DNA of 64,000 nt from a virus: IMG/VR virus record IMGVR_UViG_3300001199_000005, positions 1 through 64,000 of that record, one strand, 5' to 3'. Each line of letters opens with the position of its first letter. Position 1 is the first letter of the stretch. Shown in pieces: positions 4,543 to 56,969 of the stretch. A program made the position numbers and the translations under genes. The notes under the pieces were generated by a model that searched no databases, was not told where the DNA came from, and saw only the letters and a program-made list of their open reading frames with translations.

Positions 4543-5163
4543 ATACTTGTATATCTTCTAGTTTTATATTGATTCTAAGACCTTCTACTAACTTAGCTCT
4601 ATTCCTAAGCCGTAGCTTATCAGCGGGATGAAGGTTTGCAACTACAACAGTATAGCTAAAATTATACTGCCCTAAAGAATTTGGAGAGCTTACAAATTTC
4701 TTGTAAAGTACTCCCCAATTTCCATTTAGCTTAGTTACTATGCCTATCATTTAACTCTAACAATTATTAACCAATTATGAGTACGCTTCTTTACTTTGTC
4801 ATATATCCAAGAAGTCTTAGATGTATTTAATTCTTTAAGCAATCCAGAGTCATGCTTATCAAACACACCTACACTAGCCATAAGCGTTCTTAAACTTTTA
4901 ATAGGGTCATCAACTATCGTAACATCTAAAGGATTACCATAGTTTTTATAAACAAGGCCACCAAATGTTTTTGGACTTATTGATAGTGTGTCAACTACTA
5001 ATTTTGCTTGGATAGAATTAATATCTTCAGTAAAACCTATTATGGCAAATTTACTATTAAAGCTATTGATAAACTGGAAGATATTTGTTGTTGAGTCAGT
5101 TTTAAGAAAGAATCCTGTACTTTGCTTGGTATTAAACCTCACCTTTAATTGTTTTTTATTCAT
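4451..5163 (-). other. Two hypothetical CDSs (4451-4750, 4747-5163)
   Basis: Overlapping stop/start packing. Confidence 0.6.
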
Positions 5164-5803: not shown

Positions 5804-8179
5804 TTAAATTAAACCTCGTTCCATCATATATCTATAAGACATAAAACCATGATATTCAGAAAACCAACCATATTCAATCTGCGGTATATTTGCAATATCT
5901 TTTTTTATAAACTTAGTGTCCGAATAAAGACTGTATTCAATTGGGGAAGGACATTTAGCTGGATGTAGAAATGGAGATAAGTGTTTATCTGTAAATAACT
6001 TTTTACCAAGTAATATATCTTCTTCAATAGTCTTACCTTCCCATTTTCCATAACTTCCTCTAGCTGCTCTGGCAGAAGAAACAGATGCTGCTAAATTATC
6101 AAAATCATAGACATTATCTAACTTCATAATACCATAGTCATGGATTTCATTAGACATCTTTTCATCTAAGTTGACAAGAGGTAAATGCCATTCACCTGGT
6201 TTTAACATTTTGAAGTCGTACTCATTATAAGCATCCCACATTTTCTCTGCTAAATCCATAAGATGGATTTCTGCCATTCCTTTATTTATATGCTCATAGC
6301 CTTTTGTAAGAATTTGGTCTATAAATGAATTATAATCCAGATTTAATTCATTTATTTTTTTACCCACCTCTGCTTCAAAATCTTTTTTAGATTTTGAATA
6401 GGAAGCTATATAATATTCTGTCCATTTAGAGTGTATTAATTCATATTGGGGGCATCGTAGTTCGAAAAAATTAGCGAATTCGGTCCCAGTCACTAACACT
6501 TCTATATAACTAAATGGTTCTAAAAGTCTATTGCAAAGTTGTTTAGTAACATTTTCTTCTGAACTAAGCTTTTTGACTACCTCTACAGCCCTGTCTCTGG
6601 CCTCTAACCATAATCTTCTACAATTATCTATATGATTTGGCGCAGTAATATAGCTAGTTCCCTGCATACCTTTGTGATTACGTTGCCAGAATGAAGGTAT
6701 AAAAGGGTCTTCTTCTATTTCTTTCAACATAACTGAGATAGGTTTTGCCCTACTATTATGTACAACTATCCCATTCGCTATAAAATTTTTATAGATTCCA
6801 GACACTTCAATATCATAAGTCTCTTCTGTACCTATTAATTCAATTTTTGTAATTGCTACAAATTTTTGTACTAAACGGTTGCCCCTTATTCTAGGTTTAT
6901 TTATATCCTTTGCCAAAATAACAAGATTTTCATGTAAATTTAAAAAATCTTTTAAATTTTTCTTATTTTGTATCCAAAGCATAAGCTCTAAATCTAAATT
7001 TTTACTGTGAATAAATCTATGTATTTTTTTAGATATTGGAATTAAATTAGTAATATCAAAAGCCTTATCTTTATTATGCCAAACTGGGTCAATATGATGT
7101 AACTCTAATTCAGTGCCCGAACCAGTTAATGCACATTTATAATTATATTTTTTCATTACTTCTATACGAGATTCTGTTAAAAATCTTGTTAATTTTATTT
7201 CAAAATCTTTATAATTTTTATAAGAATTGGGTTTTCTACGCTTATTAGCACTTATTCGTACATTAACTAAACTACTTTCTGGTAAATGATAAGTTTTACC
7301 TTTATTCCAAGAACTACGTTTTAAGTTATTACTTAATAGCGTTCCTATAAAACCTCGTATATTAAATTTTTTACAAGCTTTTTTAACACGGTCTTCAGTA
7401 GTGTTGCATAAAGTTGCTATATTACCATTTGTTCTTTTTTCTTGTTTACGGGCTAAAAGCCAATTATAGTCTAAATATTCTTTAGTTTCATTTATTATTT
7501 TCCTTCTACTAAAATGTAAACCGTTTCTTCTACAAAATGCACCTGCAGCTTTTGAAATTAATCCTTGTTCTTTGCAGATTTCTATTAATGATTTGTTTTC
7601 ATTTTTACCTTTAATAAAAACATTTAAATCAAATTTTGTCCCATTAGTTGATATTTTGGGTATATTTTTATTATAAGAAACTATGTTATTATTAACACTT
7701 AGTCCAAATTCTTTTAGTGTTATCCAACCAATCTCAGAAAAAATTCTATGGTTTTCAGTACATTTAAGTTTATATCCATTTTCTAAGGTTATTTCGTAAA
7801 CTGTTTGAACACCCTGTTTAAAACAATTTGTAATATGTGAAGTAATAAATTCTCCTGAATCTTCGTTTAGTGTTCTAATATACATACCTTTAATTCTTTC
7901 TTGCATTTTACGTCCCTTAGAATCACCCTCAAACCATTTAGTAACTATATCTTTAATAGTCATACTAGTATGTTTTCGTTTTATTCCTTTTTTTAATAAA
8001 TGTGGACTTTCTATAGTTATTATAGTATCCCCACTTAAACAAGAAGACGCATTTTTTGCAAGCATCTTATGAGTAAGAAGTTCACAATGTACCACTCTTG
8101 GATAACGCAATAAATAAGTTACTAACTTTTTGTCGTTATATGGATTTAAGCTTCCAGCTACAATTTCAACTGTTGTCAT
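5804..8179 (-). CDS. thyX: Flavin-dependent thymidylate synthase-like protein containing an intein (exteins about 362 aa)
   Basis: ELLTHKMLAKNASS|SRAKP after intein removal; KQLCNRLLEPF, NFFELR, ARGSY, HLSPFLH motifs. Confidence 0.8.
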   Translation of the reverse strand: MTTVEIVAGSLNPYNDKKLVTYLLRYPRVVHCELLTHKMLAKNASSCLSGDTIITIESPHLLKKGIKRKHTSMTIKDIVTKWFEGDSKGRKMQERIKGMYIRTLNEDSGEFITSHITNCFKQGVQTVYEITLENGYKLKCTENHRIFSEIGWITLKEFGLSVNNNIVSYNKNIPKISTNGTKFDLNVFIKGKNENKSLIEICKEQGLISKAAGAFCRRNGLHFSRRKIINETKEYLDYNWLLARKQEKRTNGNIATLCNTTEDRVKKACKKFNIRGFIGTLLSNNLKRSSWNKGKTYHLPESSLVNVRISANKRRKPNSYKNYKDFEIKLTRFLTESRIEVMKKYNYKCALTGSGTELELHHIDPVWHNKDKAFDITNLIPISKKIHRFIHSKNLDLELMLWIQNKKNLKDFLNLHENLVILAKDINKPRIRGNRLVQKFVAITKIELIGTEETYDIEVSGIYKNFIANGIVVHNSRAKPISVMLKEIEEDPFIPSFWQRNHKGMQGTSYITAPNHIDNCRRLWLEARDRAVEVVKKLSSEENVTKQLCNRLLEPFSYIEVLVTGTEFANFFELRCPQYELIHSKWTEYYIASYSKSKKDFEAEVGKKINELNLDYNSFIDQILTKGYEHINKGMAEIHLMDLAEKMWDAYNEYDFKMLKPGEWHLPLVNLDEKMSNEIHDYGIMKLDNVYDFDNLAASVSSARAARGSYGKWEGKTIEEDILLGKKLFTDKHLSPFLHPAKCPSPIEYSLYSDTKFIKKDIANIPQIEYGWFSEYHGFMSYRYMMERGLI
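6755..8041 (-). mobile_element. Intein (429 aa) with HNH-type endonuclease
   Basis: Starts CLSGDT; block B LKCTENHRIF; ends TYDIEV...NFIANGIVVHN then Ser+1; internal CALTG...HHIDP...NL...H HNH motif. Confidence 0.9.
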
Positions 8180-44696: not shown

Positions 44697-47643
44697 ATCT
44701 TTGCATCAGCAACAGAAGGAATTTTATCTAAGAAGTAACCTAATGATTTAATCATAACTTCTTCTAGCTTAGCTCTAGCTTCTTCTGCATGAATTCTAGG
44801 CACTGAGCAAACAAGCTCATCATGTACTGATAAAACTATTCTTCCCCATCCCATCTTTTCAAAGTATTGAAACATCCAAATCATAGCTAGCTTACAAGCC
44901 TCTGCATTAGTTCCTTGAATAGGGGCATTAGCGGCTTCACCATAGTCATCCCCTTTAAAGAATCTTATTCTACCAAGTTTAGATGTTCTAAGATAGCAAC
45001 ACCATTCTTCATCTAAAAGTCTAGGCGTGTTGGCTAATTTAATACAACTATCTAAGTAAGCTGATAGTTCTGGAATTGCTTTGTCAATGGCGCTTGATAT
45101 AGCTTTCGACACTTGCTCCCTTTCATGTGCAGGTCTAAACATATTGATATATTTAGCAAGTACACCGTAGATACGTTTCCATCCACCCTTGTACAGTTTT
45201 GAAAATGTCACTGACTTATGAGTATCCCTAAAGTCTTGTGGAACTATATCTTTACCCTTTACTATAACAGTCTTTTTATTCTTACTAATTTCAAAAGTCT
45301 CATCACCAAGTATAACATTCATACTAACTGTGGCAAGTTCGCTGTGCATATCAGTTCCTTTTAGTAGAGAATCTGATATTAATTTATCTCCTGAGTAGTC
45401 GGCTGCGATTCTACAACGGTAACACGTTGGACTGTACCTTATTCCTGTCTCTGGGATTGTGCCGTCCAGTCTCTACACCTTCAACACTTTTTTTTAAAGC
45501 GAAGCTTGGCTCGGTATTAAAGAAGCATCCTTCACCGACTTTGACACATTTTTACACGTAGATTGCTCTACGAGGAGACCATCAAACTTCATCTTTTTGC
45601 TCTTAAGATAAAATTTGGCTTCCGAATAAATTGAATTATAAAAAGATTTTATTGAATTTTGCTCTGAAACTGTTACTATATAAATCCTATTTCTACCCTC
45701 TTTATTATAGCCATTTAATTTAGCACGAATATTTTGGGAGAGTAAAAAATTTACAATTTGGTTTGCAAACAACTCTGAACATGTAGCAATAGATACCCGT
45801 AAGTACTTATTAGATTTACTTCTTTGCATATATACACACCCGTCACCATCAAAAGCTCCTCTAATAAATGACCATGTCATTGGGATGCCTAGATTAAGTG
45901 TTAAAGATTTTCTCTTAGTTATTCCAAGAGACTCTAAAAATAAGTGTGTTTCTTTTTGCGTAAAAACTACTCTATACTGCTTTTTATCAGAATTTTTAGA
46001 TAAATAGTGAGTGATTTTAGTATTATAGCCTATAAAGACACAATATTGCTCTAAATGTTCTTTATGTATGGACGCTAATCCAATTCTAAAAGCATTTGAA
46101 GAAATATAGCCATCTGTTGCTAACATACCCAACCAATAATTTGTTGAGCTCGATTTTAAATCTATAAAAGGATTTGATTTTACCACACTATTACTTTCAG
46201 TAATAGTTCTGTGTTTTACATCCTTGGAGATTATTCTTCGTATTGAAGTGGGATAGGTATTATACAGACTAGCAATATGTCCATAACTTTTTCCACTATT
46301 ATACAAATCAATAAATAAATCTTTAAATTGTACTAATGACATAATATTTTTGTTATCCACAAATATACGTTATATCATTAAACATTCAATTATTGTTACA
46401 AATAAATCTCAGCACCCGACATATCTGCAGCCACAAACACCTCACCCTCATTATCAGGAATGAAACAGGCTCTTATCTCAGGTTTCTTAGGAATATTTTG
46501 CAGATTAACATCAGCAGAAGAAAGTCGACCTGTTTCAGTAAAGCATTGGGAATATCTTGAACATAAGAATCCATTCATATCCAAACTCTTCAAGAACTCT
46601 GTACCATAAGTGCTTATTAATTTACTATACTCTCGATAAACTAATAGCAGCTCTAGAAGCTCTTTTAAAGGACATTCAGGATGCTCATTCAAGTAAAGCT
46701 GAAGTGTATCTTCACCACTCGATGGTTTAAGGACTACTTTATTGTCCTTTCTTTCTTCCACCATAGGTAATGGTAGCTCAAGCCTTGTGAATAAATCAAG
46801 TATCTGGTCACTAGAAGCATAATTGATATTGCCCACATTCTTATTTTCAGTAATTTTAGAATCACCGAATAAAGAAGTTTGCTCTATCTTTACTTTAACT
46901 CTTTCTCTAGTATAGATACCACCCCTTATAGTAGGATATATTCTACTTAATCTAACTAATTCTTTATCCATTAACTTCTCTGTTTCGAAAAGTTTCTTGT
47001 CCCAAAAAGTAATTAACTTATTCCACGAATTTGTATCTATCTTAACACCTCTATAATTCATTTGAGCTATAATAGGTGCTAATGTATTTTCCATCCTAAT
47101 AATGTGCATCAGCTCTAACCTTTCAGCTTTAGCTAAAATAGCTTCTCGTAACTTAAACATATAGATAGTGTCTGCAGCAGCATAGTCCAACTGCTCTTTA
47201 GAGAAAACATCGGTAGGTTTCATGCCTATAAATGATTTCTGTAAGTGTTCTTTCTGTGTGCTATCCATCTTTATTCCAAGAAGTTTATCTAACACACTTG
47301 GCAAGCTTGCAGACAATTTTAGGAGTTTTAACTCACCTTTACTATTCTTTCTTAATTCTTTTTTACCGTTAGTCAAGATTTGAAATCCTAACATAGTGCA
47401 GAATACTTTAGGAAGTATTCCATACTCATGGTAAATAAAACCTAATTCAAACACAGCATTATGAGCAATAAGCTCACAACTATTATAAAAATCAATCCAT
47501 TCTTCTCTTGTGTGTTCAGCTGGTTTCTTTACTATCGTAGTTCCATCCTTATAAGTAATAGAAACTAATAATATTTTATCTACTTTTGGATTTAAACCTG
47601 AAGTTTCAAAATCTAATCCAACTAATTCTTCTTTATGTAGCAT
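44675..47643 (-). CDS. polA: Family A DNA polymerase with 3'-5' exonuclease, spliced (exon 1 46406-47643, exon 2 44675-45413; 658 aa)
   Basis: DFETSG, HNAVFE, YAAAD exonuclease motifs; TGRLSS..NLQNIP; spliced motif A DMSGAEIRIAA; motif B KSVTFSKLY; NAPIQGT; motif C VHDEL. Confidence 0.92.
45494..46342 (-). CDS. Double-motif LAGLIDADG homing endonuclease (intron-encoded; ATG 46342 preferred to GTG 46360)
   Basis: YWLGMLATDG and SFIRGAFDGDG. Confidence 0.9.
   Translation of the reverse strand: MSLVQFKDLFIDLYNSGKSYGHIASLYNTYPTSIRRIISKDVKHRTITESNSVVKSNPFIDLKSSSTNYWLGMLATDGYISSNAFRIGLASIHKEHLEQYCVFIGYNTKITHYLSKNSDKKQYRVVFTQKETHLFLESLGITKRKSLTLNLGIPMTWSFIRGAFDGDGCVYMQRSKSNKYLRVSIATCSELFANQIVNFLLSQNIRAKLNGYNKEGRNRIYIVTVSEQNSIKSFYNSIYSEAKFYLKSKKMKFDGLLVEQSTCKNVSKSVKDASLIPSQASL
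46360..46389 (-). promoter_or_regulatory. Bacteroidota-type promoter inside the intron
   Basis: TTG-N19-TATATTTG matches the -33/-7 consensus. Confidence 0.55.
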
Positions 47644-50691: not shown

Positions 50692-51955
50692 TTTGTTAAT
50701 AAATAAATAGTTATTATAGTTAATACTGCGGATATTATCTTAAAAATTACTAGAGTTGTTTTGGTGTCCCTAAACTTTTCCATTAATTCTTCATGCATTC
50801 TTGCTTTCAGGTCCATCTCCTTATTTACAGCTATCTTTAGTCTAGACATGTTATTTAAGAAAGAATTAAAGGTTATCTGAGCTAATCTATAACCTGCAAA
50901 CCAATAATGTTCTCCGTTTCTATCATTTTGTCTTAGATACTTGAAGTATTCTAAAATACCTTTGCCAGTAATTTCGTCTATTTCTTTGAACATCTCTTTT
51001 ACATCTTCATCTGACAACTCAAACATTTGTTGAATGTCATCATCGCTTTCATGTTTGTCCAAGACTATTGTTATGGACTCTTCAGACATTAAATACTCGT
51101 TAGGACCAATGCCCTGCTTTAGATTAAAATCTCTTATTAATCTTTTACCTGTTTCAATGTTGTTTCCTGTGAAACTAAGTATATCTCCATCGGTTGATTT
51201 ATACTTTTCTCCCCCTGAGTATACTCTAACAATATCATTTAAAGTGATATATTGTCTATTCTTTCTTAGCCCTAGTGTTATCATTCTTTAGGATTTTTCC
51301 CGGCTTAGGTTTATAAACCAATATAAACCAAATCATTGCGTATAGTGTGGCAGCTAGTAAACCGCCGTAAATAAATATATTAACCATATCAAACAATAAA
51401 TTAAATTTAATAATATACTTACTGCTATAAATATAAATTTATAGAAAAAAACTTTTATCTGTTGTAATAACATAACACATGGCACCACTAAAATAAATGA
51501 TGTTACATAAGTTATATCTAAACTTATTACAAGACCCTGCAATAGTAATGATATTGTTACTATAGACATAACGGTATAATCCCTATTAGCTAGCTTTTGC
51601 AAATGTAATCTTTTTAAATTTCTTTGAATTTCTTTTTAACCAAGATTCTGTTTTAACCAATGTATACCCATTAGCTCTTAAAATACTATCAAGTTCGAAA
51701 ATTGATAATGCCCTACCCTCTACTATTATTTGATGGGGAGTTAATTGACTCATATCGTTGAATGTTTAGTCTATTTTCTTTACTTAATTCTCTAGCCAAG
51801 TTCTCCACATAACTATAAGTCTTACTATGTATTGTCGCTAACTTTCTAAAAGAGAACTTATACAGAAGTAAATCTCGTATTAGTGCTTCTCTTAGTATTC
51901 TACTATGATTCGTTTGAATAGGCATACAGACAGCATTCAATATCTGTAGGTTCAA
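50688..51955 (-). other. Hypothetical CDSs (50688-51284, 51354-51602 membrane, 51713-~51907)
   Basis: Packed ORFs. Confidence 0.55.
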
Positions 51956-52325
51956 ATATATTACAAATTACTTTATAATATTGTTCCCAATCTCCCCCAG
52001 CTAATCCACAGCCTATAAATACAGGCATGGCGATAGACTTTGGCTTAAGCGCTACAATAGCGTACATACACTTCTTAAACCATTCTAATCTTGGTTCTTT
52101 ATCTGATTTTCCAGGATAATCCTGTGCATAGGCATTAATTATTCTACCATGAACTGATATTTCTCCAGGAATACGTTTGAAGTTGGAATCTATATAGGTA
52201 TTAGCTTCTGGAAAAACTTTGAATATTTGATTAGCAAGACCTGATGAATGATAACTTCTGCAATTACATTGATGTATGATGTAATCTTCTTTTGCTTTTA
52301 ATATATCACCGTTTATTTGTAACAT
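51903..52325 (-). CDS. Macrodomain (ADP-ribose processing) protein
   Basis: GDIL...IIHQCNC...GLA..I...FP...INAYAQ...IAMP..IGCGLAGGDW. Confidence 0.9.
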   Translation of the reverse strand: MLQINGDILKAKEDYIIHQCNCRSYHSSGLANQIFKVFPEANTYIDSNFKRIPGEISVHGRIINAYAQDYPGKSDKEPRLEWFKKCMYAIVALKPKSIAMPVFIGCGLAGGDWEQYYKVICNIFEPTDIECCLYAYSNES

Positions 52326-52582
52326 GTTTTAAAGTTATAGTTAATTGTATCTCTTCCTACAATAGAATATCCTGTACTAATAATAGTATCAGCTTTATAC
52401 TCTAACCATAATGACAGGCTATGCCCTTTATCATGGAAATGAACTGAATTCTCATACTCCACATAAAACAAATCAGGTGCTGGTACTTTATAGACCAACA
52501 CCTGATTAGAAAATTCAACCTGTAATTGACAGCCATAACTTGGGCATATTACAGCCCAAGCTATAAGCAGTTCCTGTATCAT
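52313..52582 (-). CDS. Hypothetical protein
   Basis: 89-aa ORF. Confidence 0.55.
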   Translation of the reverse strand: MIQELLIAWAVICPSYGCQLQVEFSNQVLVYKVPAPDLFYVEYENSVHFHDKGHSLSLWLEYKADTIISTGYSIVGRDTINYNFKTCYK

Positions 52583-54381
52583 ATATTGAATTTTTCTACA
52601 ACAACTTTTACTTCGTCGTAGGCATTATTTCTATATGAAATATCTAACGCTGTATAAGGATTAAGAATATCCCAATCTTTTACATTCATAACTAGTTTGG
52701 TAATGTTCTCCACTTGACCAGGAACAAAAATAAGTCCAGGAACTTCTTTGAAATCTCTTACATCCCTGTTTTGTCCAACATCCATCAAGACAACAAGTTC
52801 TGGTCTGTAGCCAACTTCTACCTCCATAATCTTCATGGCTGCGTCAAATGAACGAACCACGTCACGCTCATTATTAAAGTTACCATCACTGATTAATAAC
52901 CAGATTGGATATGAACTAAGTAGTTCTCTAATACTATCCCTTTCAGCAAGACTGGCTGTTTTCATTATACCGTGTATAGCTTCGCCAATAGAAGCTAAAT
53001 TAGTACCATTCCCAGTTTGAATAGCTGATAAGAAACCACTTAACTGCTTATAGTTCTCCAACAAAGACTTTCTTTTATCTACCAACGGCTGTTTTGCTGC
53101 TTGCACAGCTTCACCAAATCTAGTAGCTTTCTTGTCAACGTAGGAAATATATCTAGCCTTATCAGAAAATGTCCAGAATCCTGAATCAGTTTCGGTCTTT
53201 AGCAGAACAATGGTAAGTAAAAACTTAGCAACATCAATAGGCTTAATGGAGCCACTAGAACCACCATACATAGAGCCACTATCATCAACAAACACCATTA
53301 CTTTATCAGTACCTAGCTTAACAGTCTTCAAATACTCTTCAGCAGCAAGAGCGTCCACAGTTTCAGTTCTTAAAGCTTCTAGTATTGTTTTTGTATTATA
53401 TACACCACGACTAACTTTAGCTTCTTTCTCTAATTGCTTTAAGTTGATTTGGTCGGTCAAAGATAACTCTTTGCCTTCGTTATCAGCTTTAAAATCTCGT
53501 AGTGTTTGATTGCTTTTCTCTTTCGATTCTTGCCATTCTTTGAAAATGTCAATCATAGGAGTATCTACAATCTTCCATAATTCAGGCTGTTTAACTATTC
53601 TATTATAGACTCGTTTTCTAGCACCACCAGTAAGGTGGTCAAGCCAAGTCAAGAAGTCTTGTTTAGTAAACTTAAGTATTTCCTTAGTAGAAAACATTAC
53701 TGACTCTAACTGCTTGTTATGTTCTTTCTTAAACTCTTCGGCACCGATATACCTAGTATTCTTAGGATAATATTTAATATCCCAATTCATTACTGAACTA
53801 AGCTCAATAGCGAACTTATGTTTTAGTCTTTGAGCGGTGACAGAGGCCTTTGACCTAGCTACTTTGATAGTCTTATCTTTTAACTTCCTCTTAGGCTTTG
53901 AATGAGGAAGTACTAACTGTTTAGCAGCTATTACTCTTCTCATAGGATTGCCCTTAACCCAAGCAGCGAATATTTTTGCCTGTGTAGCTAAATCATAGAT
54001 ATTGTTTCTATCTGTGGTTACATAGTATAGCTCTGATAATGAGGTGAACTCAATCAATACACGTACTATTGCTTCCAAGAATTCAGGTTTGTCTATAAAT
54101 TTAACAAATATCCAGTTAAATATTACTTGTCCTGACTTTCTATTAGCGTAACCACCAATAGTTCTTTGACTTTTCGCATAAATCCAATGCTGTCTATTTG
54201 TAATTGCAATACATTCTGCTAGTAATACAAAGAACAATTGTTTGTGCTCTTTAGTAGTACATTCATGCCAAGCATTAGTAATATCTGATTCTGAAATCAA
54301 ATCTTTACCTATTGCGTTTGATAATACCAGTAGTGCTGGTTTGTTATCAAAAGGGGTCTTTTTTTGAGTTAGTGTTACCAT
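52579..54381 (-). CDS. vWA-domain protein with ~350-aa helical N-terminus (TROVE/Ro60- or DUF2828-like architecture)
   Basis: MIDAS residues VFVDDSGSM, GNGTN, LISDG; basic helical N-terminal region. The Ro60-like assignment is inference. Confidence 0.65.
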   Translation of the reverse strand: MVTLTQKKTPFDNKPALLVLSNAIGKDLISESDITNAWHECTTKEHKQLFFVLLAECIAITNRQHWIYAKSQRTIGGYANRKSGQVIFNWIFVKFIDKPEFLEAIVRVLIEFTSLSELYYVTTDRNNIYDLATQAKIFAAWVKGNPMRRVIAAKQLVLPHSKPKRKLKDKTIKVARSKASVTAQRLKHKFAIELSSVMNWDIKYYPKNTRYIGAEEFKKEHNKQLESVMFSTKEILKFTKQDFLTWLDHLTGGARKRVYNRIVKQPELWKIVDTPMIDIFKEWQESKEKSNQTLRDFKADNEGKELSLTDQINLKQLEKEAKVSRGVYNTKTILEALRTETVDALAAEEYLKTVKLGTDKVMVFVDDSGSMYGGSSGSIKPIDVAKFLLTIVLLKTETDSGFWTFSDKARYISYVDKKATRFGEAVQAAKQPLVDKRKSLLENYKQLSGFLSAIQTGNGTNLASIGEAIHGIMKTASLAERDSIRELLSSYPIWLLISDGNFNNERDVVRSFDAAMKIMEVEVGYRPELVVLMDVGQNRDVRDFKEVPGLIFVPGQVENITKLVMNVKDWDILNPYTALDISYRNNAYDEVKVVVEKFNI

Positions 54382-54597
54382 ATTTTCCTATTGTTAAATG
54401 TAAATGTACTTGATTTTTCTGAAGAGTCTGTACTCTGCTGAGTCACTTTCTCATTAAGGAGTTCAACAAACTTACTAAAAGATATTTTTTCTCTGTGAAG
54501 TTGGTTAAACCAATCTCTTACTTGAGCTACTATAAAAATTTTTTTCATTCTAATATATTATAAATATTGTCTACTTGAAATCCAGCAGCCTTACAAA

Positions 54598-54921: not shown

Positions 54922-54959
54922 AAAAAAAAATAAGCCTGCCGTTTTTACTTCAGCAGGCT
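54922..54959 (-). terminator. Intrinsic terminator ending the RNA array
   Basis: AGCCTGCTG...CGGCAGGCT followed by TA and U9. Confidence 0.75.
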
Positions 54960-54968
54960 ATGTAAGAA

Positions 54969-55697
54969 GACATACTATAAGGCGGATTCGAACCGCTTTC
55001 TTCTGATTTCAAGTCGGACGCTATACCAAAATAGCAGCTGTTAATGAGTTGTGAGTATGTCAAAGGCTGAAGCTTACTATTATTTTAAACGGACTGTTAT
55101 TTTTTTGTATAGTTGTAAGTAAGCTGAGTATCTATAATTTTTTTTAGTCTAGGAAAAGAATTCTATATTGGTCAATTTAAAAGGTTGATGCTCTACCGAG
55201 CGGGTAAAGTTGTAAGAATTCTAAAGAAGTAAGCATACCATATTGGTCAATTTAGCAGATTGGTGCCCGAAGGCTCTAAGTTGTAGGTATGCTGAATATC
55301 TATTATTTGAAATAGTCTAAGTAAGACATGCTTTTTGTTTGGCAACATTATCAGTGTTTATTTTTAGTTGTAAGCATATCGAAAGTCTTGAATAAGAACA
55401 CTATAGTTGTCAAAAACCAAAATTTGATGCCCGAATAGGCGTTTTTAGTTGTGAGTGTTCTGAATGTCTGAAAGAAGTACTATAATTTAAACACCCAAGG
55501 ATTTCTCCTGCAGAGTATTATTGGAATCGAACCAATTTTAACCATTTTGTTAATGATTGTAAGTACTTCAATATGTCTTGAAAAGAATACTATTATCCTG
55601 CTTTCGCAGTCTATACAGGAGTTGAACCCGTTACTGATTGATTATAAGTCAATTGCTCTACCAGATGAGCTAATAATTAATGAGTTGTAAGTATTCT
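54969..55697 (-). ncRNA. Tandem array of eight stem-framed tRNA-fragment cassettes
   Basis: Units 55584-55697, 55474-55569, 55395-55461, 55325-55380, 55232-55293, 55157-55222, 55071-55125, 54969-55061; each has an 8-bp covarying stem, YACAA(CU) and variable cargo. Confidence 0.85.
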
Positions 55698-55703
55698 GTT
55701 TTG

Positions 55704-55802
55704 TGCGGAAAACTGGGGTCGAACCAGTAGAACATATTTCGCTTTAGTTTGTCGAGGTCTAAAGCCTTTGAAATACTGCTTTGCCAATTTGCATATTTCC
55801 AC
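55704..55802 (-). ncRNA. tRNA-like RNA with elongated arm in place of the anticodon stem-loop
   Basis: Acceptor GUGGAAA/UUUCCGC-A; D-arm UGCAAAUUGGCAAAGCA; T-arm ACUGG-UUCGACC-CCAGU; central GUAUUUC..GCUUUAG/CUAAAGC..GAAAUAU. Confidence 0.7.
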
Positions 55803-55808
55803 ATTTTT

Positions 55809-55852
55809 AAAAAGACCTGCCGTGTTTCAATATCCTTCGACACGGCAGGTTT
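55809..55852 (-). terminator. Strong hairpin plus U-run (terminator or processing stem)
   Basis: ACCTGCCGTGT...ACACGGCAGGT-CTTTTT. Confidence 0.65.
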
Positions 55853-55855
55853 GTG

Positions 55856-56002
55856 CAGCGCATCTTTTAGAAAGTTTAATGCTGATGTATCCAAACGTTC
55901 TACCATTTAAACTACTCACCCTTGTTGTTATTGTTTTTGAGGGCAAGAGGGGGCTCGAACCCCTAATTTTTTGGAGGTCTGACTTTCTATATGCAACTGC
56001 TG
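55856..56002 (-). ncRNA. Circularly permuted tRNA-like RNA with YrlA/Y-RNA architecture
   Basis: Order: T-arm (AGGGG-UUCGAGC-CCCCU), acceptor closed by a loop (CUUGCCC...GGGUGAG), D-arm (GUUU-AAAUGGUA-GAAC); ends pair via UCCAAA/UUUGGA, UAGAAAGU/ACUUUCUA, GCAU/AUGC, CAGC/GCUG. Confidence 0.75.
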
Positions 56003-56088: not shown

Positions 56089-56889
56089 TTAAATCTTACC
56101 TCGATGGAGATAAGAAAATATTTTGTTTGCTGTCATTTCTGATTCAACTGCTACAACATCATTAGCAACTTTTAATGCTTCTATAACTGCTGTTAATAAT
56201 CGTGAACGACGAGCAAGGATTTCTGCTCTTTGTGTATGTGTGTATTCTCCTGAAAAACGTTGATGTGAGTAATCACCAAGTTCCAAAGTATTATCTTTTG
56301 TAGCCACCATTGGAGTATACTTAGTGCTAGCATTCTCAATTTTACCAATATTAGGGTCTGGTAAAATGTATTGCTCTTTCACAGTAGTCTTGGTAGTACC
56401 AGTACGTAAAGGAGTTTCGTAGACTGCTCTTGAAGAATACATCTCATTAGTAGTTGGGGCCCAAATCTCATCATCATTACGTACTGGAATATTCTCGTAC
56501 AACTCCTTTAAAGTGCCATTTTCCAACAGTGATTTCAAACGAAGTAACTCTAATGATGAGAATTCACCAAACAATTCTCCATCTACCTCTAACTTTGCCC
56601 TTACTATGCCTTTAGCATTAGTTGCTTCTTGTGCAAATAAAGCATTAATATAATCAGCAGAAGTCCTTTCTAGGAAGTCTAACTTTTCTGCCACAGTTGT
56701 TACTACCAACTTGTTAGAACGCTCGCTTGGAACATCCATAGTTCCTGGTTTTGGCTCGTAACTCTTGCGTTCCCCCTTGAAAGCACCTTGAGAACTTTTA
56801 AAGAACTTTACATAATCTGTAATCATTCCTTTAAATATTGTCGAAAGGTGGTCTGTTTTGGCTAACAGAGTGTTTAACTTTAAGTTCAT
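56089..56889 (-). CDS. Hypothetical helical protein heading the ncRNA operon
   Basis: 266-aa ORF preceded by a promoter and followed directly by the RNAs. Confidence 0.75.
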   Translation of the reverse strand: MNLKLNTLLAKTDHLSTIFKGMITDYVKFFKSSQGAFKGERKSYEPKPGTMDVPSERSNKLVVTTVAEKLDFLERTSADYINALFAQEATNAKGIVRAKLEVDGELFGEFSSLELLRLKSLLENGTLKELYENIPVRNDDEIWAPTTNEMYSSRAVYETPLRTGTTKTTVKEQYILPDPNIGKIENASTKYTPMVATKDNTLELGDYSHQRFSGEYTHTQRAEILARRSRLLTAVIEALKVANDVVAVESEMTANKIFSYLHRGKI

Positions 56890-56939: not shown

Positions 56940-56969
56940 CAAAGTTAGTAATTATTGCTAATATACCAA
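56940..56969 (-). promoter_or_regulatory. Bacteroidota-type housekeeping promoter
   Basis: TTG-N19-TAACTTTG in the intergenic region upstream of 56889. Confidence 0.65.

What the first reader, a model, noticed from the sequence alone, without database searches (positions are those of the whole stretch)
54969..55697. Array of eight RNA cassettes displaying different tRNA anticodon arms on a common covarying scaffold
Seen directly (minus strand): each unit is an 8-bp stem whose sequence changes while pairing is kept (AGAAUACU/AGUAUUCU, GAAGUACU/AGUACUUC, AGAACACU/AGUGUUCU, GAUAUGCU/AGCAUGUC, AGCAUACC/GGUAUGCU, AGAAUUCU/AGAAUUCU, AGCUUACU/AGUAAGCU, GACAUACU/AGUAUGUC). The 5' arm is always followed by YACAACU (UACAAUC in one unit), and most linkers carry AGAC. 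The cargo differs per unit, in transcription order: D+anticodon(UAU, Ile)+T arms; a T-arm only; hairpin+anticodon-like UUG (Gln); GAU (Ile); hairpin+GCU (Ser); D-arm+UUU (Lys); no clear arm; D+UGA (Ser)+T arms. None has an acceptor stem, so they should not be chargeable. Inference: a modular panel of tRNA mimics on a protein-binding handle. They could be decoys for host anticodon nucleases (PrrC and PARIS AriB cut tRNA-Lys) or partner RNAs for the nearby Ro60-like protein. I do not recognise this as a described system, but cannot exclude an existing Rfam motif.
Basis: partly seen in the sequence, partly recalled or inferred. Interest (0 to 1): 0.95.

Follow-up and report, generated by a model that had tools for sequence, protein, structure and literature searches.

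The report
Phage Ro60-partner small-RNA array
A large uncultured phage carries eight tandem small-RNA genes that share one docking "handle" but hold different pieces of tRNA, and they sit beside a Ro60-shaped RNA-binding protein, so they are most likely an undescribed type of Y-RNA-like partner for that protein.

Summary
On the minus strand of 54969-55697 there are eight units. Each is closed by a perfect 8-bp stem of differing sequence, followed at once by YACAAYY. This is the only such cluster in the 153-kb genome.

The same handle (consensus AAGNYACU-UACAAUA ... AGURNCUU) recurs about 300 times in 67 loci of distant relatives. It lies almost only on the strand of a 600-aa gene and is clustered around that gene. 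The gene's predicted structure matches Ro60/TROVE over its full length.

The stem covaries: 7 of 8 pairs show compensatory changes. The cargo falls into three classes:
- "mini" units, a quarter of which carry anticodon-type hairpins
- tRNA-sized units, many with a permuted tRNA
- closed handles inserted inside otherwise good tRNA genes

My best reading is Y-RNA-like partner RNAs of a divergent phage Ro60, in which the handle docks the protein and the tRNA-like cargo acts as an adaptor. Binding, processing and the proposed anticodon-nuclease decoy role are untested. A tRNA splice or processing signal remains a minority rival.

Rfam and the papers I could search do not describe this handle. Earlier notes of this scan report analogous handles beside Ro60-like genes on other phage DNA.

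The parts
55584..55697 (-). Unit 1: handle AGAAUACU/AGUAUUCU + UACAACU. Cargo is D, anticodon (CUUAUAA) and T arms plus a GAAA hairpin, with no acceptor end.
   Evidence: (tRNA model 5-66, 47.3 bits)
55474..55569 (-). Unit 2: handle GAAGUACU/AGUACUUC + UACAAUC. Cargo is a T-arm plus two other hairpins.
55395..55461 (-). Unit 3 (mini): handle AGAACACU/AGUGUUCU + CACAACU. Cargo is a small hairpin plus a 5-bp stem with loop UUUUGGU.
55325..55380 (-). Unit 4 (mini): handle GAUAUGCU/AGCAUGUC (one G.U) + UACAACU. Has a weak 4-bp hairpin with loop CUGAUAA.
55232..55293 (-). Unit 5 (mini): handle AGCAUACC/GGUAUGCU + UACAACU. Cargo is a UUCG hairpin plus a stem with loop CUGCUAA. Homologous in layout to L002:7650-7711.
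55157..55222 (-). Unit 6 (mini): handle AGAAUUCU/AGAAUUCU + UACAACU. Cargo is a D-arm-like hairpin plus a stem with loop CUUUUAA.
55071..55125 (-). Unit 7 (mini): handle AGCUUACU/AGUAAGCU + UACAACU. Cargo is A-rich and unstructured.
54969..55061 (-). Unit 8: handle GACAUACU/AGUAUGUC + CACAACU. Cargo is D, anticodon (CUUGAAA) and T arms, with no acceptor stem.
   Evidence: (28.7 bits, acceptor pairs broken)
54922..54959 (-). Intrinsic terminator closing the array: 9-bp G+C-rich stem, then UAU followed by nine U.
   Evidence: read. The scan missed it because its loop is 9 nt.
55703..55802 (-). tRNA-like RNA directly upstream of unit 1. It has an acceptor stem, a short D arm and a T arm, but a long hairpin replaces the anticodon arm.
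55809..55850 (-). 11-bp hairpin plus U5 between the YrlA-like RNA and the tRNA-like RNA. It is either a leaky terminator or a processing structure.
   Evidence: read. No Bacteroidota -7 box lies between it and the array.
55866..55988 (-). YrlA-like RNA: terminal stem, T arm, acceptor hairpin, then D arm.
   Evidence: (RF02553, 21.1 bits, below the gathering score)
52579..54381 (-). 600-aa divergent Ro60-like protein (helical ring plus vWA domain with a DxSGS MIDAS motif). Proposed partner of the handle.
56940..56947 (-). The only Bacteroidota-type -7 box (TAACTTTG) upstream of the DUF7873 gene, YrlA-like RNA, tRNA-like RNA and array. A second box (TAAGTTTG, 54467-54474) precedes the Ro60-like gene.

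Best explanation
The eight units are genes for small Y-RNA-like RNAs that partner the phage's divergent Ro60-like protein. Each RNA is closed by a handle: an 8-bp stem formed by its two ends, with a conserved single-stranded UACAA immediately 3' of the 5' arm. I infer that this handle docks the RNA on the Ro60-like ring, as the terminal stem of Y RNAs does on Ro60/Rsr.

The variable interior (tRNA body without acceptor end, T arm, D-plus-anticodon-arm half, or nothing) would be the adaptor part. By analogy with YrlA (tRNA-like) and YrlB (short), and with Y RNA tethering PNPase to Rsr, it would gate the protein or bring tRNA-recognising factors to it.

The array is probably made as one transcript that ends at the terminator at 54922-54959, and is then cut in the U/C-rich, often AGAC-bearing linkers.

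Shown here: the repeated architecture, the covariation, the strand bias, the linkage to the gene and the Ro60 fold. Inferred: binding, processing and the adaptor function.
For: 1. The architecture is real and under selection.
- Eight of eight perfect stems of differing sequence.
- In 67 loci of relatives, ACTTACAA occurs 412 times on the gene strand against 34 on the other strand.
- 315 of 385 distinct sites have a 7-bp partner arm, against 33 of 385 with randomised arm bases.
- In an alignment of 46 small units, 7 of 8 stem pairs show changes on both sides: 88 cells against 22.9 in shuffles, with 0 of 500 shuffles as high.
- A covariance model built from that alignment finds all eight window units, including units 1, 2 and 8 that were not in it, and nothing else on the minus strand of the 64 kb.

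2. The partner protein has the Ro60 fold. The AlphaFold model has pLDDT 80.6. The 13 best Foldseek matches are all Ro60/TROVE over about 600 columns. VIA-align gives Z 10.8-13.7 with about 400 aligned residues spanning 15-593 for ten Ro60 entries, including Thermus phage phiLo Ro60.

3. Linkage to the gene.
- In this genome all handles lie 0.6-1.3 kb upstream of the gene.
- In five complete relatives of 172-185 kb, 37 of 51 same-strand ACTTACAA sites lie within about 5-8 kb of the gene.
- In 21 of 67 loci a unit ends less than 120 nt before the start codon. In 18 a unit starts within 150 nt after the stop.
- In a reverse search of IMG/VR for three spaced copies of the motif, all 18 hits that have real stems lie on contigs with this gene. 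The other 34 hits are plain tandem repeats with few or no partner arms. No relative of this protein and no TROVE domain was found in the 25 of their records that could be searched.

4. Context fits the known kind.
- A YrlA-like RNA lies in the same operon.
- Y RNA-like RNAs next to Ro60 are documented in bacteria and phages (PMC4201824, PMC12135203).
- The size classes (mini 45-85 nt, tRNA-sized 100-125 nt) parallel YrlB and YrlA.
- Linkers of 5-12 nt join handle and cargo, and there is no general second helix. This suits a tethered docking module better than a precise splice site.
Against: - No binding, expression or end-mapping data exist, and no RNA run holds this DNA.
- The handle bears no visible likeness to the Ro60-binding helix of animal Y RNAs or to the YrlA consensus. 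No unit matches RF02553.
- All handle-bearing contigs belong to one phage lineage, so co-occurrence with the gene could partly reflect shared descent. Closeness could also reflect a common tRNA region.
- In relatives the handle also sits inside otherwise intact tRNA genes and around permuted tRNAs with encoded CCA. A pure docking model does not require this.
Confidence: 0.6

Rival explanations
1. The handle is a cut-and-rejoin (splice or processing) signal of a phage system of fragmented tRNA genes. Closed handles would be introns at non-standard positions. Open handles around T-acceptor-D-anticodon units would be the ends of permuted pre-tRNAs that are circularised and reopened. The window's array would then be a set of by-products or relics.
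For: - 76 distinct closed handles lie inside tRNA genes with perfect acceptor stems.
- 70 of these become tRNAs that ARAGORN calls after 30-60 nt are deleted in silico. The junctions fall mostly in the D loop, with some at 26/27, 36-40 and 45-50.
- Permuted units carry a discriminator plus CCA and a short spacer between the acceptor strands.
- The relation of closed insert to open handle at the variable-loop position mirrors the intron and permuted-gene relation known in archaea and red algae (PMC3728597, PMC4090602).
- The phage has an RNA-ligase-like gene and a cyclic-phosphate-processing cREC gene.
Against: - Five of the eight window units, and about 30% of all units, have no T arm or acceptor stem and cannot yield a tRNA.
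- In some relatives the handle replaces the anticodon loop altogether.
- Ser or Leu anticodons sit on short-variable-arm bodies.
- There is no bulge-helix-bulge geometry and no general second helix.
- The distances from handle to cargo vary.
- There is no splicing endonuclease or RtcB in the genome.
Confidence: 0.13
2. The units are free-standing decoys or sponges for host enzymes that attack or modify anticodon arms (anticodon nucleases such as PrrC, RloC, PARIS AriB or Cas13). They would act without the Ro60-like protein, and the stem would serve only to stabilise the RNA.
For: - Anticodon-type 7-nt loops (YU-NNN-RN) on 4-bp or longer stems are enriched in mini cargos: 29 of 110 against 8.2 +/- 2.7 in shuffles.
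- UUU (Lys) is among the commonest triplets.
- The same cargo layout keeps the loop form while the triplet changes between phages.
- RNA-repair-type genes are present in the phage.
- tRNA-targeting defences and phage tRNA countermeasures are established (PMC12409363, PMC7824862).
Against: - Only about a quarter of mini units carry such a hairpin, and the stems are short and often mismatched.
- Unit 7 and many relatives have no arm at all.
- The strictly conserved UACAA and the tight linkage to the Ro60-like gene are not explained by this model.
- The enrichment could be a legacy of descent from tRNA.
Confidence: 0.12
3. The array is a graveyard of decayed tRNA genes flanked by a selfish repeated element (a small inverted-repeat insertion) that has no RNA-level function.
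For: The cargo is tRNA-derived and truncated to differing degrees. HNH and GIY-YIG homing nucleases lie in the same regions of relatives.
Against: - Stem sequences differ between copies but stay paired, with many compensatory changes. Copies of a mobile element would instead share their repeats.
- The motif shows a 12-fold strand bias.
- G.U pairs fit only the transcribed strand.
- The mini architecture is conserved across phages whose Ro60-like proteins are only about 30% identical.
Confidence: 0.05

Closest known systems
Bacterial and phage Y RNAs with Ro60/Rsr (YrlA, Rfam RF02553, and YrlB; Chen et al. 2014, PMC4201824; Thermus phage phiLo Yrl1/Yrl2, PMC12135203)
   Same: - Small RNAs encoded beside a Ro60-fold gene.
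- The two ends pair in a terminal stem next to a conserved unpaired stretch.
- The interior is often tRNA-like.
- Short and tRNA-like forms coexist.
- Several copies occur per locus.
   Different: - The handle sequence (8-bp stem plus UACAA) is unlike the YrlA consensus or the CGAA-type site.
- No unit reaches RF02553.
- There are eight tandem units.
- The cargo includes anticodon arms, which YrlA lacks, and normal-order tRNA bodies.
- In relatives the handle is also built into complete tRNAs.
- The protein is beyond the reach of Pfam TROVE.
Dictyostelium Class I RNAs (Rfam RF01414; PMC7919456)
   Same: - 42-65-nt RNAs with a short stem joining the 5' and 3' ends.
- A conserved motif lies directly after the 5' arm.
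- The rest of the RNA is variable.
- From my memory, not checked here, the 11-nt motif contains CUUACA, which resembles CUUACAA.
   Different: - RF01414 gives no match on the array at E up to 10.
- These are eukaryotic RNAs bound by an RRM protein, not by Ro60.
Non-canonical introns and permuted tRNA genes of archaea and red algae (bulge-helix-bulge system; PMC4090602, PMC3728597)
   Same: In relatives one RNA module appears as an insert at several tRNA positions and as the paired ends of permuted tRNA genes.
   Different: - There is no 3-4-3 bulge-helix-bulge.
- The genome has no splicing endonuclease gene.
- Many units have no tRNA to mature.
Phage tRNA genes that replace or evade cleaved host tRNAs (for example T5 against PARIS; PMC12409363)
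   Same: Phage-encoded anticodon arms in a genome with RNA-repair-type genes.
   Different: The window's units lack acceptor ends and cannot act in translation.

Membership tests
YrlA (RF02553) / bacterial Y RNA | Encoded next to a Ro60/Rsr gene | tested here: met
   The array ends 588 nt upstream of the start of the Ro60-fold ORF, on the same strand. The linkage recurs in relatives.
YrlA (RF02553) / bacterial Y RNA | Match to the covariance model at its gathering score (69 bits) | tested here: not met
   No unit matches at E up to 10. Only the neighbouring RNA at 55866-55988 matches, at 21.1 bits.
YrlA (RF02553) / bacterial Y RNA | tRNA-like domain in the order T arm, acceptor hairpin, D arm, on a terminal stem | tested here: not met
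   Units 1 and 8 have normal-order D, anticodon and T arms. Units 2-7 hold fragments. That order does occur in handle units of relatives.
YrlA (RF02553) / bacterial Y RNA | Bound by Ro60/Rsr through the terminal stem | not testable with these tools
   Needs EMSA or RIP. No tool here models protein with RNA.
Ro60/TROVE protein (the 600-aa neighbour) | Ring of helical repeats followed by a vWA domain with a MIDAS motif | tested here: met
   The secondary structure and the invariant D366-x-S368-G369-S370 fit. Full-length matches to ten Ro60 entries give Z 10.8-13.7.
Ro60/TROVE protein (the 600-aa neighbour) | Sequence match to Pfam TROVE (PF05731) | tested here: not met
   No match at E 0.01 for the protein or at E 0.1 in the genome. 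There are only marginal hits to vWA_Ro60 (E 0.059) and to TROVE chains in the PDB (E 0.42).
tRNA (RF00005) | Cloverleaf with a 7-bp acceptor stem and a free 3' end | tested here: not met
   ARAGORN calls none of the units without forcing an intron. Unit 1 aligns only to model positions 5-66, and unit 8 has broken acceptor pairs.
Dictyostelium Class I RNA (RF01414) | Match to the covariance model | tested here: not met
   No match on 54969-55697 at E up to 10.
Bulge-helix-bulge tRNA introns / permuted tRNA genes | Two 3-nt bulges separated by a 4-bp helix at the junctions | tested here: not met
   The handle has a one-sided unpaired UACAA stretch. No general second helix exists (4.89 against 4.49 bp, and none next to the handle).
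Bulge-helix-bulge tRNA introns / permuted tRNA genes | Splicing endonuclease and ligase encoded or available | tested here: inconclusive
   There is no tRNA_int_endo or RtcB. An RNA-ligase-like ORF scores 25.3 bits, just under the cut-off, and a cREC domain is present. The genome is about 85% complete.

The most novel reading that the evidence does not exclude
The Ro60-like protein and its handle RNAs form a modular particle whose exchangeable cargo presents a panel of anticodon arms (Ile, Gln, Ser and Lys types here). The particle would capture, sense or neutralise host enzymes that attack tRNA anticodon loops. In the relatives the same handle would be grafted onto working tRNAs, so that the particle guards or repairs the phage's own tRNAs.
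Probability: 0.15. Interest if true: 0.9.

Novelty: new variant of a known kind. Interest (0 to 1): 0.74.

Why it matters
What bacterial and phage Ro60 particles do, and why their Y RNAs imitate tRNA, remains open. This locus and its roughly 300 relatives offer several things:
- a compact, sharply defined docking module (8-bp stem plus UACAA)
- a natural series of cargos running from whole tRNAs to bare anticodon-D halves
- a protein so divergent that sequence profiles miss it

Together they give a direct way to test how Ro60 reads its RNA and what the tRNA-like part recruits. They also show that part of the "non-coding" DNA and of the odd, uncallable tRNA genes in large Bacteroidota phages is a family of structured RNAs. 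If the cargo proves to engage anticodon nucleases or repair enzymes, it would be a new RNA-based counter-defence.

Tried and rejected
- Expression: no RNA holder is listed for this DNA. The only full holder is a groundwater metagenome run, which may be the source.
- Close relatives: a single-protein scan of IMG/VR found none, and tblastn against GenBank phages found none. blastn of the array against phages matched only the tRNA-like part of unit 1.
- Family searches with no match: Pfam TROVE, RtcB, the tRNA splicing endonuclease and RF01414.
- Second helix: I tested whether a second helix stacks on the handle, as it seems to in unit 1. It is not general.
- Integron attC-like recombination sites: rejected by reading. 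UACAAC does not fit RYYYAAC, there is no inverse core at the 3' arm, and the strand bias points to RNA.
- CRISPR-like repeats: rejected, because the stems differ in sequence.
- Promoters and terminators: the sigma-70 promoter scan was uninformative for a Bacteroidota phage, and the terminator scan missed both minus-strand hairpins because their loops exceed 8 nt.
- ACAGCAA: the handle motif that earlier notes report in other phages is not used as a handle here.
- Complex prediction was not used, because it does not take RNA.

Full report
**What is in the window**

Read on the minus strand, 55697-54969 holds eight head-to-tail units. A mechanical scan of the whole 152,878-bp record looked for an 8-nt arm, then YACAAYY, then a fully pairing 8-nt arm within 140 nt. 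It returns exactly these eight on the minus strand, plus ten scattered matches on both strands, most of them G.U-dependent, among 211 other motif sites. Against that background rate (4.7%), eight of eight is a chance of about 2e-11.

The stems differ in sequence: AGAAUACU, GAAGUACU, AGAACACU, GAUAUGCU, AGCAUACC, AGAAUUCU, AGCUUACU and GACAUACU. All eight are in the minimum-energy fold.

Rfam recognises the interior of unit 1 as tRNA positions 5-66 (47.3 bits). Unit 8 scores 28.7 bits, with its acceptor pairs broken. Nothing else in Rfam 15 matches the units at E up to 10. ARAGORN calls none of them as plain tRNAs.

The remaining cargos are as follows:
- Unit 2 has a T arm.
- Units 3 and 5 pair a small hairpin with a 4-5-bp stem and 7-nt loop (UUUUGGU and CUGCUAA).
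- Unit 6 has a D-arm-like hairpin plus the loop CUUUUAA.
- Unit 4 has only a weak 4-bp hairpin (CUGAUAA).
- Unit 7 has no arm.

In tRNA terms, the hairpin-plus-loop units look like the D arm plus anticodon arm with everything else removed.

**Surroundings**

The record is a large uncultured phage. Earlier notes of this scan call it crAss-like, of Bacteroidota. The one full DNA holder is a groundwater metagenome.

Upstream on the same strand, in order, lie:
- a Bacteroidota -7 box at 56947
- a DUF7873 gene
- a YrlA-like RNA at 55866-55988 (RF02553 at 21 bits, with the T arm, acceptor hairpin, D arm order)
- a hairpin with U5
- a tRNA-like RNA whose anticodon arm is replaced by a long hairpin (55703-55802)
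- the array
- a strong terminator at 54922-54959

No promoter box lies between the YrlA-like RNA and the array. One read-through transcript is therefore likely, but this is an inference.

Two small ORFs follow, then a second -7 box, then the 600-aa ORF at 52579-54381. Pfam does not recognise this protein. PHROG 850, "RNA-binding protein", matches its C-terminal half. A model built on 33 relatives (pLDDT 80.6) matches Ro60/TROVE structures over its full length. These take the 13 best Foldseek places. With VIA-align they give Z 10.8-13.7 over about 400 residues spanning 15-593, above the vWA-only matches. The MIDAS motif DxSGS is invariant.

**Relatives**

The protein has only distant relatives (26-32% identity), all from metagenomes and many on contigs of 100-185 kb. 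I fetched 8 loci through exact proteins and 59 from IMG/VR. In these loci the same handle is abundant.

- ACTTACAA occurs 412 times on the strand of the gene and 34 times on the other strand, in 787 kb.
- Of 385 distinct sites chosen by that 8-mer alone, 315 have a 7-bp partner arm. Only 33 do when the four variable arm bases are randomised.
- The consensus is AAGNYACU-UACAAUA ... A-AGURNCUU followed by U-rich sequence.
- In an alignment of 46 small units (five from this window), 7 of the 8 stem pairs show changes on both sides. That is 88 such cells against 22.9 in shuffles, with 0 of 500 shuffles as high. All slid registers collapse to 31-44% paired. These rows were chosen for pairing, so the percentage paired is circular. 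The compensatory changes and the test are not.
- A covariance model from that alignment finds all eight window units and, apart from a reverse-strand echo of unit 7, nothing else in 64 kb. Units 1, 2 and 8 were not in the alignment and score weakly because of their large inserts.

**Linkage to the gene**

In this genome every handle lies within 1.3 kb of the Ro60-like gene, while the standard tRNA genes lie 9-18 kb away and carry no handle.

In five complete relatives of 172-185 kb, 37 of 51 same-strand ACTTACAA sites lie within about 5-8 kb of the gene, that is, in windows of 3.5-9.6 kb (gene positions). In 21 of 67 loci a unit ends within 120 nt of the start codon. In 18 a unit begins within 150 nt after the stop. 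None lies inside the gene.

As a reverse test I scanned IMG/VR for three spaced ACTTACAA copies and obtained 52 stretches. Eighteen of them lie on contigs that hold the Ro60-like gene: 17 by tblastn in the stretch itself, and one on a contig already known to hold it. The other 34 are plain tandem direct repeats with few or no partner arms. No relative of the protein and no TROVE domain was found in the 25 of their records that could be searched.

Caveat: all true arrays come from one phage lineage, so co-occurrence is not a set of independent events.

**Cargo classes**

Unit lengths are bimodal.

- **Mini units (45-85 nt; 116 sites).** Of 110 distinct cargos without a T loop, 29 hold a hairpin of at least 4 bp with a YU-NNN-RN loop. 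Shuffled cargos give 8.2 +/- 2.7. UUU and GAU are the commonest triplets. The layout of unit 5 recurs in L002, L004, L014, L043, L061 and L067 with other triplets.
- **tRNA-sized units (145 sites; 139 with a GUUCRA T loop).** Many are permuted in the order T arm, acceptor hairpin, D arm, anticodon arm. Some have the discriminator plus CCA before a short spacer.
- **Closed handles.** Here the stem is capped by a loop and the whole module is inserted into an otherwise good tRNA gene. I found 76 distinct cases. Seventy become tRNAs that ARAGORN calls after 30-60 nt are deleted in silico. The junctions fall mostly in the D loop, with some at 26/27, in the anticodon loop or in the variable loop. 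Infernal aligns some as tRNAs in which a 52-66-nt insert replaces the anticodon loop.

All classes share one logic: a tRNA-derived body, or none, tethered to the same handle. Only the place where the chain is open differs.

**Interpretation**

The best fit is a Y-RNA-like family for a divergent phage Ro60. Several points support this:
- The terminal stem with an adjacent conserved unpaired stretch, the coexistence of short and tRNA-like forms, the position beside a Ro60-fold gene and the presence of a YrlA-like RNA in the operon all match what is known for Rsr with YrlA/YrlB and for phage phiLo (PMC4201824, PMC12135203).
- Comparative-genomics work treats TROVE proteins with tRNA-like partners as an RNA-repair platform in large phages (PMC7824862).
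- This phage also has an RNA-ligase-like ORF (PF09414, 25.3 bits), a cREC cyclic-phosphate-processing domain and a macro-type phosphatase two genes downstream of the Ro60-like gene.

What the cargo does is inference. It could act as an adaptor that gates the ring or recruits tRNA-recognising proteins.

The anticodon-loop enrichment may also simply be inherited from tRNA ancestors.

The splice or processing rival explains the closed and permuted forms well. It fails for the third of units that contain no tRNA and for anticodon-less chimeras. It also lacks a defined junction geometry and an endonuclease. Decay plus a selfish repeat is contradicted by the covariation and the strand bias.

**Novelty**

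I found no paper on this handle, on permuted or handle-bearing tRNAs in phages, or on Ro60 in crAss-like phages. Rfam has no model for it.

The architecture recalls the Dictyostelium Class I RNAs, which have a short terminal stem plus a motif next to the 5' arm (PMC7919456). RF01414, however, does not match.

Earlier notes of this scan report analogous handles (stem plus ACAGCAA) beside Ro60-like genes in Felix O1-type and gut phages, and tRNAs with a built-in handle. So the scan has met this kind before on other DNA. Those notes are not independent evidence. In my loci the ACAGCAA form is not the one used as the handle.

I class the finding as a new variant of a known kind: real, well supported as a structure and as a gene-RNA pairing, and with its mechanism still to be shown.

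Noticed in passing
L006:10060-10940; L003:11980-12100; L040:4480-4830; about 76 sites in L003-L071: In relatives, a closed form of the handle (hairpin AGUNNC..GNNACU plus UACAAU) is inserted into otherwise good tRNA genes. The insert lies in the D loop, at 26/27, in the anticodon loop or in the variable loop. In some genes it replaces the anticodon loop entirely.
   Followed up: partly
L003:15503-15633; L002:7375-7486 and 7722-7899; L004:1219-1331; L006:10216-10319: Permuted tRNA units inside open handles, in the order T arm, acceptor 3' strand, discriminator (sometimes CCA), short spacer, acceptor 5' strand, D arm, anticodon arm. One of them (L002:7722-7899) has a 70-nt spacer.
   Followed up: partly
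window 18885-19337 (-) and 20312-21556 (-): A cREC (cyclic-phosphate-processing receiver) domain protein and an RNA-ligase-like protein (PF09414, 25.3 bits, whole profile covered). These are RNA-repair-type genes about 33 kb from the array.
   Followed up: partly
window 51903-52325 (-): Macro-domain / PHROG 335 phosphatase, two genes downstream of the Ro60-like gene.
   Followed up: no
window 55703-55802 (-): tRNA-like RNA with a good acceptor stem and T arm, whose anticodon arm is replaced by a long hairpin with the loop ACCUCGACAAA. ARAGORN can call it only by forcing a 22-nt intron.
   Followed up: partly
window 55866-55988 (-) and 56089-56889 (-): YrlA-like RNA directly after a DUF7873 gene. 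L002 also has a DUF7873 gene (512-1279), about 6.7 kb upstream of its Ro60-like gene.
   Followed up: partly
window 54969-55584 (-), linkers between the units: The 3' arms are followed by U/C-rich linkers. Five of the seven contain YAGAC, which also occurs in the internal loop of the YrlA-like RNA (CAGACCU). This may be a processing site.
   Followed up: no
L013, L016, L022, L026, L033, L040, L043, L046, L059, L061, L067 at about 4880-5045; L004:7927-7971: In many relatives a mini handle unit lies immediately before the start codon of the Ro60-like gene. This may be a co-transcribed partner RNA or an autoregulatory site.
   Followed up: partly
window 45494-46360 (-) and 46396-47643 (-): A LAGLIDADG endonuclease ORF lies next to an ORF covering only the N-terminal part of a family A DNA polymerase. 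This suggests a polymerase gene split by an intron or intein.
   Followed up: no
L078, L091, L095, L099, L100, L102, L111, L112, L119: Giant-virus bins and other contigs hold tandem direct repeats that contain ACTTACAA but have few or no partner stems. They are unrelated to the handle family, and are a warning against motif-only searches.
   Followed up: partly
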